From positions 13,392,001-13,456,000 of the forward strand of contig OZ024765.1 of assembly GCA_964016885.1 (NCBI GenBank): a DNA stretch of 64,000 nucleotides, written 5' to 3'. The DNA is from Eledone cirrhosa (Eukaryota). A model generated the notes under the pieces. The model did no database searches. It was not told the DNA's origin and saw only the letters and a list, made by a program, of their open reading frames with translations. The stretch's first letter is position 1. Every line of letters begins with the position of its first letter. The position numbers and the translations under genes were made by a program. This document shows positions 24,832 through 25,554 of the stretch, one piece after another.

Positions 24832-25362
24832 CCAGCTATGAGATCCCAGTTCTATCTCCAGATGCCCTACATTAACTGGACATTTGACCAGATGTCCCCC
24901 ATAAACTGGACACTAGACCAGATGTGAGATCTCAGTTCTATCACCAGATGTCCTCCATAAACTGGACAGTTGACCAGCTGTGAGGTCCAGTTCTATCTTC
25001 AGATGTCCCCCATAAACTGGACAGTTGACCAGCTATAGAGCACCAGTTCTATCTCCAGATGTGAAGTATTAGTTCTATCTCCAGCTGTCAGGTACCAGTT
25101 CTATCTCCAGATGTCAGGTACCAGTTCAACCTCCAGATGTCAGGTACCAGTTCTATCTCCAGATGTAAGGTAGCAGTTCTCTCTCCAAATGTCAGGTACC
25201 AGTTCAACCTCCAGATGTGAGGTACCAGTTCAACCTCCAGATGTGAGGAACCAGTTCTATCTCCAGATGTAAGGTAGTAGTTCTATCTCCAAATCTAAGG
25301 TACCAGTTCTATCTCCAGCTGTAAGGTACCAGTTCTATCTCCAGATGTGAGGTACCAGTTCC
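24832..25362. repeat. minisatellite (~57-bp units collapsing to ~27-bp units) homologous to the start of protease exon 2
   Basis: 24949-24993 vs 25411-25456 match at 38/46 by hand alignment. Confidence 0.8.
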
Positions 25363-25397
25363 CACTGAAACTGATGCCATATTTCTATCTGTTACAG

Positions 25398-25554
25398 TGC
25401 TATCCCCAACTGTCCTCCACAGACTGGACAGTCAACCAGCCAAGAGGTGCCAGTTCCCGCATATTGTCCTGCTCCACATACAGGGTCACCTCAATATCCA
25501 GTGTGCTGGGAGTTTAGTGGACAGAAGACATGTTGTCACCTCAGCTCACTGTCT
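25398..25554 (+). CDS. S1A serine protease exon 2 (catalytic His)
   Basis: ttacag|...|gtaagt. Encodes (V)LSPTVLHRLDSQPAKRCQFPHIVLLHIQGHLNIQCAGSLVDRRHVVTSAHC(L), with CxGSL and TSAHC motifs. Phase 1 to phase 2. Confidence 0.92.

What the first reader, a model, noticed from the sequence alone, without database searches (positions are those of the whole stretch)
24832..25456. Intronic minisatellite is an amplified copy of the protease's own acceptor and zymogen-activation coding segment
Seen: the long unit (cagttctatcaccagatgtcctccataaactggacagttgaccagctgtgaggtccagttc) aligns with cag|tgctatccccaactgtcctccacagactggacagtcaaccagccaagaggtgccagttc, i.e. the acceptor plus the first ~55 nt of exon 2, bounded by a CAGT microhomology. 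The core matches 38/46 by hand. This is exactly the stretch encoding the non-canonical activation site. Inference: either the exon seeded the array, or exchange with the array rewrote the activation segment. In both cases the array is a local reservoir of variant N-termini and decoy AG acceptors.
Basis: partly seen in the sequence, partly recalled or inferred. Interest (0 to 1): 0.75.

Follow-up and report, generated by a model that had tools for sequence, protein, structure and literature searches.

The report
Mirage repeat from octopus protease exon
A 530-base repeat in an intron of a serine-protease gene, likely from an octopus, is a decayed, amplified copy of the first 56 bases at the next exon's start; it is likely a tolerated repeat of a known kind ("mirage") that copied an already unusual activation segment rather than creating it.

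Summary
Array 24832-25363 matches the acceptor CAG plus the first 53 nt of exon 25398 (38/46; 0 of 1000 shuffles reach the score). It is not a dispersed repeat. The direction is exon to array: the exon stays in register with the canonical activation motif of paralogues. Rewriting by the array is unlikely. The Octopus bimaculoides orthologue has the same non-canonical type of segment (HKLGSN vs HRLDSQ), and three of four array copies read Lys like it. About 11 near-fixed differences and no long identical tract argue against recent conversion. The reservoir idea is weak: 12 short units lack the activation codons, 3 of 4 long copies carry in-frame stops, and 2 of 57 upstream AGs give an open frame. 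A second such array sits at the catalytic-Asp exon. This is a 'mirage' minisatellite, known from amphioxus and human F7; the scan has reported the class at several other loci of this genome. Residual interest: the protease keeps its triad but lacks Ile16, and a paralogue on C22 with a non-canonical segment carries a younger copy of the same stretch. No RNA could be tested.

The parts
24832..25043 (+). Long-unit part of the array: a 15-nt partial, an 86-nt unit (56+30), a 55-nt and a 56-nt unit; four copies of the 30-nt sub-unit with the activation codons, three with an in-frame stop
25044..25355 (+). Twelve 26-nt units: the 56-mer minus 30 nt between two internal look-alike 8-mers; they lack the activation codons; mean pairwise difference 14%
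25356..25363 (+). Array end, identical to exon 25451-25458 and running 3 nt past the unit boundary: likely the end of the founding duplicated block
25364..25397 (+). Non-repeat spacer plus acceptor: branch-point-like motif near 25371-25375, pyrimidine tract, CAG; 39 nt from the previous AG; best-scoring AG of the region
25398..25554 (+). S1 peptidase exon (phase 1 to 2) with the non-canonical activation segment H-R-L-D-S-Q-P and catalytic His (SAHC); nt 25395-25450 are the source of the unit
35841..35965 (+). Next exon; 35/41 aa identical to the O. bimaculoides orthologue
36890..37497 (+). Second junction-derived array (52-61 nt units): copies the pyrimidine tract, CAG and about 20 nt of the catalytic-Asp exon
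   Evidence: score 51, 0/1000 shuffles; exon part 14/20, 1 of 100000 shuffles
37505..37636 (+). Exon with catalytic Asp (NDVAIL)
41033..41175 (+). Exon before the catalytic Ser; Thr at the position-189 equivalent by my count
43700..43855 (+). Last coding exon with GDSGSP (Asp194, Ser195) and stop; the five exon lengths give compatible phases with GT-AG ends

Best explanation
The array is a copy of the acceptor CAG and first 53 bases of the adjacent protease exon, likely born by a local duplication across the splice site and then expanded by slippage, and it is likely spliced out as neutral intron. Inferred steps: (1) a roughly 95-nt duplication placed a copy of the exon start upstream of an intact branch point, pyrimidine tract and AG; (2) the upstream copy lost or never carried a pyrimidine tract, so the downstream site stayed the acceptor; (3) slippage or unequal exchange at CAGT (56 nt apart) and at two internal look-alike 8-mers (30 nt apart) made the 56, 86, 30 and 26-nt units, which then homogenised among themselves while the exon stayed out. 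The non-canonical activation segment was likely already present and was simply copied. The host gene is an intact-looking S1 peptidase with the triad and Asp194 but Arg at position 16, predicted to be zymogen-like or activated unconventionally.
For: Shown: similarity beyond shuffles; unit anatomy and microhomologies; local origin, as the short-unit 18-mer has 9 exact hits, 5 here and 4 in one 20-bp minisatellite on C3; register with canonical paralogues; orthologue with H-K-L-G-S-N-P; Lys in 3 of 4 array copies as in the orthologue, Arg in the exon; about 11 near-fixed differences and a longest internal identical run of 10 nt; 2 of 57 upstream AGs give a stop-free in-frame extension, assuming a phase-1 upstream exon; a second array of the same kind at the Asp exon; a single-copy, 57/62-identical version of the same architecture in paralogue L021. 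Known class: PMC3087553 and PMC1557585 (passages).
Against: No RNA was laid, so use of the 25398 acceptor is inferred. The acceptor model is weak: real acceptors of this gene score -0.2 to 8.4, and decoys reach 4.9 against 6.1 for the proposed site. No trace of a pyrimidine-tract copy is detectable upstream of the array (p about 0.7), so step 1 is a reconstruction. Copies of the activation segment occur in 2 of 4 non-canonical and 0 of 37 canonical paralogue groups (Fisher p 0.007; 0.075 without this locus), which a purely indifferent by-product does not predict. The upstream exon was not found, so expression of the gene is unproven.
Confidence: 0.8

Rival explanations
1. Copy-driven erosion: once an intronic copy exists, mutations arising in it are converted back into the exon where tolerated, and this replaced the canonical activation motif. 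At this locus it would have happened before the split from O. bimaculoides.
For: The two triad-intact paralogue groups with non-canonical segments (this gene and L021) are the only ones with an upstream copy. In L021 the first 34 nt of copy and exon, covering T-M-P-A, are identical, and all 5 mismatches fall in the conserved 3' part (p 0.022 with the region fixed beforehand, 0.09 as a longest-run test). Array and exon here share L-D-S.
Against: No identity tract at this locus; mismatches are spread over both halves. The orthologue shares the segment type, and the copied part is not faster-evolving (10/14 vs 21/31). Non-canonical segments without any copy exist (L005, L055). The L021 copy is 92% identical, too young to supply four changed codons on its own (inference). 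Relaxed constraint would give the same association.
Confidence: 0.08
2. The array supplies alternative acceptors that add or vary the propeptide, or that tune expression by sending transcripts to decay.
For: 57 AGs lie upstream, several behind an 11-nt pyrimidine-rich stretch scoring within the range of real acceptors. Pseudo-sites are used in human 6-16 and CBS (PMC1557585, passages).
Against: 55 of 57 lead to a frameshift or stop; the two open ones (25326, 25359) are not among the 12 best-scoring AGs. In amphioxus mirages, regular splicing was reported undisturbed (PMC3087553, passages).
Confidence: 0.07
3. The array came first as an unrelated minisatellite, and its terminal unit was exonised, replacing the exon start.
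For: A minisatellite with a similar 18-mer exists on C3.
Against: The copied segment encodes the family-wide P-A-x-x-C-Q-F-P motif in register with paralogues and with the orthologue. The C3 array resembles only the derived 26-mer and lacks the 30-nt part.
Confidence: 0.02

Closest known systems
'Mirage' minisatellites of amphioxus (Adh3; globins BflGb6, BflGb9); PMC3087553, passages read
   Same: Intronic tandem copies of an intron-exon boundary, including the acceptor-side type; unit size within the reported 10-160 bp; spare AG signals; boundary excluded from homogenisation.
   Different: Here the unit holds only 3 intron bases and is almost all exon, a unique 31-nt spacer separates the array from the live junction, and most units are deletion hybrids that have lost half of the exon copy.
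Human F7 intron 7 37-bp VNTR and the CBS, 6-16, LAMIN B2 and PDGF junction minisatellites; PMC1557585, passages read; PMC2812944, passages read
   Same: A minisatellite reiterating a splice junction, with mostly silent pseudo-sites; F7 is also an S1 protease gene.
   Different: The examples in the PMC1557585 passages are donor-side and abut the exon; this one is acceptor-side and about 20% diverged from the exon.
PRSS23, a triad-intact S1 protein without the Ile16-Asp194 switch; PMC13194640, passages read
   Same: The host protein keeps His-Asp-Ser but has a polar residue at position 16, and the non-canonical state is shared with an orthologue.
   Different: Asp194 is retained here. No activity, processing or expression data exist for this protein, and it is not a PRSS23 orthologue by any test run here.

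Membership tests
Mirage / junction-spanning minisatellite | Tandem units that copy an exon-intron boundary of the host gene | tested here: met
   Unit = CAG + 53 exon nt; score 62, 0/1000 shuffles. Only 3 intron nt are included, and a 31-nt spacer intervenes.
Mirage / junction-spanning minisatellite | Locally derived, not a dispersed repeat | tested here: met
   One other locus matches, and only the short unit. The DNA search is a lower bound; the pattern count is exact-match only.
Mirage / junction-spanning minisatellite | Units carry spare splice signals | tested here: met
   57 AGs in 24816-25358
Mirage / junction-spanning minisatellite | Concerted evolution within the cluster, boundary copy excluded | tested here: met
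   About 11 differences from the exon are shared by most or all pieces; 26-mers differ from their consensus by 0-4 nt
Mirage / junction-spanning minisatellite | Regular splicing undisturbed | not testable with these tools
   No RNA holder listed; only frame and score arguments
Mirage / junction-spanning minisatellite | Length instability between haplotypes | tested here: inconclusive
   Three runs of one sample show one form; three reduced-representation runs had 0 reads here
Peptidase S1A (chymotrypsin fold), host gene | Catalytic His, Asp, Ser in their motifs | tested here: met
   SAHC, NDVAIL, GDSGSP in phase-compatible exons; PDB hits to factor IXa and others
Peptidase S1A, canonical zymogen activation | Ile/Val at position 16 after the cleavage site | tested here: not met
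   Arg here, Lys in the orthologue
Peptidase S1A, canonical zymogen activation | Asp194 | tested here: met
   GDSG
Peptidase S1A, canonical zymogen activation | Signal peptide / propeptide exon | tested here: inconclusive
   A scan of the window upstream of the exon and 10 kb before it gave no convincing candidate

The most novel reading that the evidence does not exclude
Intronic mirage copies act as mutational donors that erase the zymogen switch of octopod S1 proteases. Mutations accumulate in the intronic copy, gene conversion imports them into the exon wherever selection tolerates them, and the outcome is a class of triad-intact, Ile16-less proteases. This happened independently at this gene and at the C22 paralogue, the only two examined activation exons with such a copy.
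Probability: 0.08. Interest if true: 0.7.

Novelty: new member of a known kind. Interest (0 to 1): 0.27.

Why it matters
As it stands, it is one more mirage in a genome rich in them, though a clear one: the microhomologies explain every unit length, and the C22 paralogue shows what looks like the single-copy first stage. The side finding is a cephalopod S1 peptidase with an intact triad but a basic residue at position 16 in two species, a candidate pseudoprotease or unconventionally activated enzyme. If the conversion reading were true, it would show an intronic repeat rewriting a functional coding switch, which none of the passages I read describes.

Tried and rejected
(1) The live acceptor as exon-derived (the spacer shares CATATT and TACAG with the exon's continuation): not significant, p 0.18-0.45 against shuffles, and 12-27 of 59 real acceptors score as well; rejected. 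(2) A pyrimidine-tract copy upstream of the array: none detectable. (3) The 6-nt deletion at 25063 as an allele: it gives the unit of the C3 minisatellite, so it is likely cross-mapping. (4) RNA: no RNA holder listed. Run X4 gave two 151-nt exact intronic records only. RAD-seq runs X5-X7 had 0 reads. None of this is evidence either way. (5) More orthologues: three word-index searches found nothing beyond the query; only the HMMER search gave the O. bimaculoides protein, a partial 126-aa model whose N-terminal residues before VFADR may be mispredicted. No orthologue DNA was reachable. (6) Upstream exon: the scan gave no convincing candidate. The hydrophobic 18-codon frame at 13749 ends in a stop without a donor and resembles the 108-bp array edge only weakly (23 of 1000 shuffles). 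(7) L054's score-42 hit is an AT-rich match inside the exon, not a junction copy; not counted. (8) Base rate at other exons: 2 of 68 loci flagged, both short (L127, L070). The exon-only test missed the known 37505 array, and L118 was read on the wrong strand, so it is a lower bound. (9) No tree was built (56-nt units carry too little signal); shared states were tabulated instead. No structure was predicted, as only single exons could be submitted.

Full report
Observation. The sequence shows a repeat at 24832-25363, a 31-nt non-repeat spacer, and an acceptor CAG at 25395-25397 opening a 157-nt exon. Tandem Repeats Finder reports periods 30, 56 and 26 here. The unit at 24933 aligns to 25395-25456 with score 62, and none of 1000 dinucleotide shuffles reaches it (max 33). 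CAGT stands at 25395 and 25451, 56 nt apart. Contigs from three runs of one sample, which may be the assembly's own, reproduce 877-878 bases without a difference. A genome search with 24832-25557 finds one other locus. The short-unit 18-mer has 9 exact hits, 5 here and 4 in a 20-bp minisatellite on C3 that lacks the 30-nt part. The unit is therefore local; both searches are lower bounds.

Anatomy. After a 15-nt partial come units of 86, 55 and 56 nt, then twelve 26-mers, then an 8-nt end. The 26-mer equals the 56-mer minus 30 nt between two internal look-alike 8-mers, and the 86-mer is 56+30. Only four pieces hold the activation codons, and three of them have an in-frame stop. The array's end matches the exon for three bases beyond the unit boundary; I infer that this marks the end of a founding duplicated block of about 95 nt. 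The spacer holds a branch-point-like CTGAT (consensus recalled) and the pyrimidine tract. A copy of that tract upstream of the array is not detectable, and the idea that the spacer itself is exon-derived failed its test.

Host gene. Five exons (25398, 35841, 37505, 41033, 43700) have GT-AG ends and compatible phases and encode an S1 peptidase with SAHC, NDVAIL and GDSGSP. No upstream exon was found. Register with factor IXa puts Arg at position 16. The canonical switch needs Ile or Val there to pair with Asp194; PRSS23 keeps the triad, lacks the switch and showed no activity (PMC13194640, passages). The best paralogue exons in the genome are only about 50% identical. A HMMER search gave O. bimaculoides XP_014781010.1 at 69%, whose two best hits in this genome are this gene's exons. 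It is a partial 126-aa model.

Direction of copying. I examined 50 of the 51 matches. Canonical paralogues read, for example, Q-I-V-D-G-S-P-A-R-D-C-Q-F-P, in exact register with H-R-L-D-S-Q-P-A-K-R-C-Q-F-P. The unit therefore descends from protease coding sequence. The orthologue reads H-K-L-G-S-N-P-A-K-K-C-Q-F-P, so the non-canonical type of segment is shared across species. Identity to the orthologue is 10/14 in the copied part and 21/31 in the rest of the exon, with no acceleration. Three of the four long copies read Lys at position 16, like the orthologue, where the exon has Arg; the fourth has a stop there. About 11 differences from the exon are shared by most or all pieces, spread over both halves, and the longest internal identical run is 10 nt. 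This argues against recent conversion.

Decoy acceptors. Of 57 AGs upstream, 2 (first bases 25326 and 25359) give a stop-free in-frame extension if the upstream exon ends in phase 1. A matrix from 47 paralogue acceptors ranks 25398 first (6.1; next 4.9), but the gene's other real acceptors score -0.2 to 8.4, so the model separates poorly. No RNA run was listed, so splicing is inferred.

Is the activation segment special? A second array in the same gene (36890-37497) copies the tract, CAG and about 20 nt of the catalytic-Asp exon (score 51, 0/1000; exon part 14/20, 1 of 100000 shuffles). The other eight junction-side tests showed nothing beyond simple-repeat edges. This favours a general process. 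One result runs against indifference. Paralogue L021 (C22) has a non-canonical segment (H-T-M-P-A-S-P), His, Asp and Ser motifs in the exons found, and one upstream copy of its AG plus exon start, 57/62 identical, 80 nt away and separated by the pyrimidine tract: the same layout, ending near the same Q-F-P codons. I collapsed 8 near-identical duplicates by eye and dropped L053, whose exon lacks the segment. Copies then occur in 2 of 4 non-canonical and 0 of 37 canonical groups (Fisher p 0.007; 0.075 without the index locus). The two non-canonical groups without copies (L005, L055) have each lost a catalytic residue. In L021 all 5 mismatches lie in the conserved 3' part (p 0.022 with the region fixed, 0.09 by longest run). 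This is compatible with conversion filtered by selection, but also with chance or with relaxed constraint letting such duplications survive. At other S1 exons 2 of 68 loci showed short copies, a lower bound.

Mechanism. Shown: homology, unit structure, microhomologies, register, orthologue state, frames. Inferred: a duplication across the acceptor; survival because the downstream site keeps branch point and tract; expansion and homogenisation by slippage or unequal exchange; neutral splicing at the last site (confidence 0.8). Rivals: conversion-driven erosion of the switch (0.08), functional alternative acceptors (0.07), exonisation of a foreign repeat (0.02).

Comparison. Tandem copies of exon-intron boundaries are described as 'mirages' in amphioxus Adh3 and globins, with 10-160 bp units, spare AG/GT signals, undisturbed splicing and boundary units excluded from homogenisation (PMC3087553, passages). 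Human F7, CBS, 6-16, LAMIN B2 and PDGF carry junction minisatellites (PMC1557585, passages); repeats at exon-intron boundaries can alter gene structure (PMC2812944, passages). Earlier scan notes report the class at several other loci of this genome (unchecked AI notes, which gave me the term 'mirage'). Four literature searches listed no title on a mirage in a cephalopod protease or on this protein; I saw most hits only as listings, and no supplements were read.

Verdict. The rewriting and reservoir claims are not supported at this locus. Interest 0.27, carried mostly by the switch-less protease and the parallel case on C22.

Noticed in passing
L021 1407-1548 (G000:C22:3475876-3476017): A paralogous S1 gene with non-canonical H-T-M-P-A-S-P and triad motifs carries one upstream copy of its AG plus exon start (57/62 identical, 80 nt offset); the first 34 nt are identical.
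   Followed up: partly
window 36890-37497: A second junction-derived array (52-61 nt units) at the acceptor of the catalytic-Asp exon, with intact CAG in the units.
   Followed up: yes
L005, L077-L078 (C1:277.33 Mb): An S1 paralogue with a non-canonical segment (D-E-T-S) and no catalytic Ser motif, without a junction copy; a similar protein is in O. bimaculoides, with cluster members from O. vulgaris and O. sinensis (P0045).
   Followed up: partly
L055, L103 (C22:0.59 Mb): An S1 paralogue with a non-canonical segment and Gly in place of the catalytic Asp.
   Followed up: no
window 25660-35751: A 10-kb C/A-only tandem array (35-nt period) fills almost the whole intron after the activation exon.
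   Followed up: no
window 13749-13805 and 13805-15638: A hydrophobic 18-codon frame ending in a stop sits at the edge of a 108-bp array and weakly resembles its unit (23 of 1000 shuffles); it might be a decayed unit or related to the missing first exon.
   Followed up: partly
L002 1310-1650 (C3:13.236 Mb): A minisatellite of about 20-bp period shares an 18-mer with the 26-nt unit; likely convergence.
   Followed up: partly
L127 and L070: Short local duplications (19 and 26 nt) next to other S1 exons.
   Followed up: no
window 101-1398 and 44018-44513: The same 72-bp repeat family, in opposite orientations, lies upstream and just downstream of the gene; 61-bp arrays of one family occur at 39829 and 41973.
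   Followed up: no
G000 C22 (about 0.6-5.3 Mb and 20.4 Mb), C28 (about 44 Mb): Clusters of S1 peptidase paralogues, some as near-identical inverted copies.
   Followed up: no
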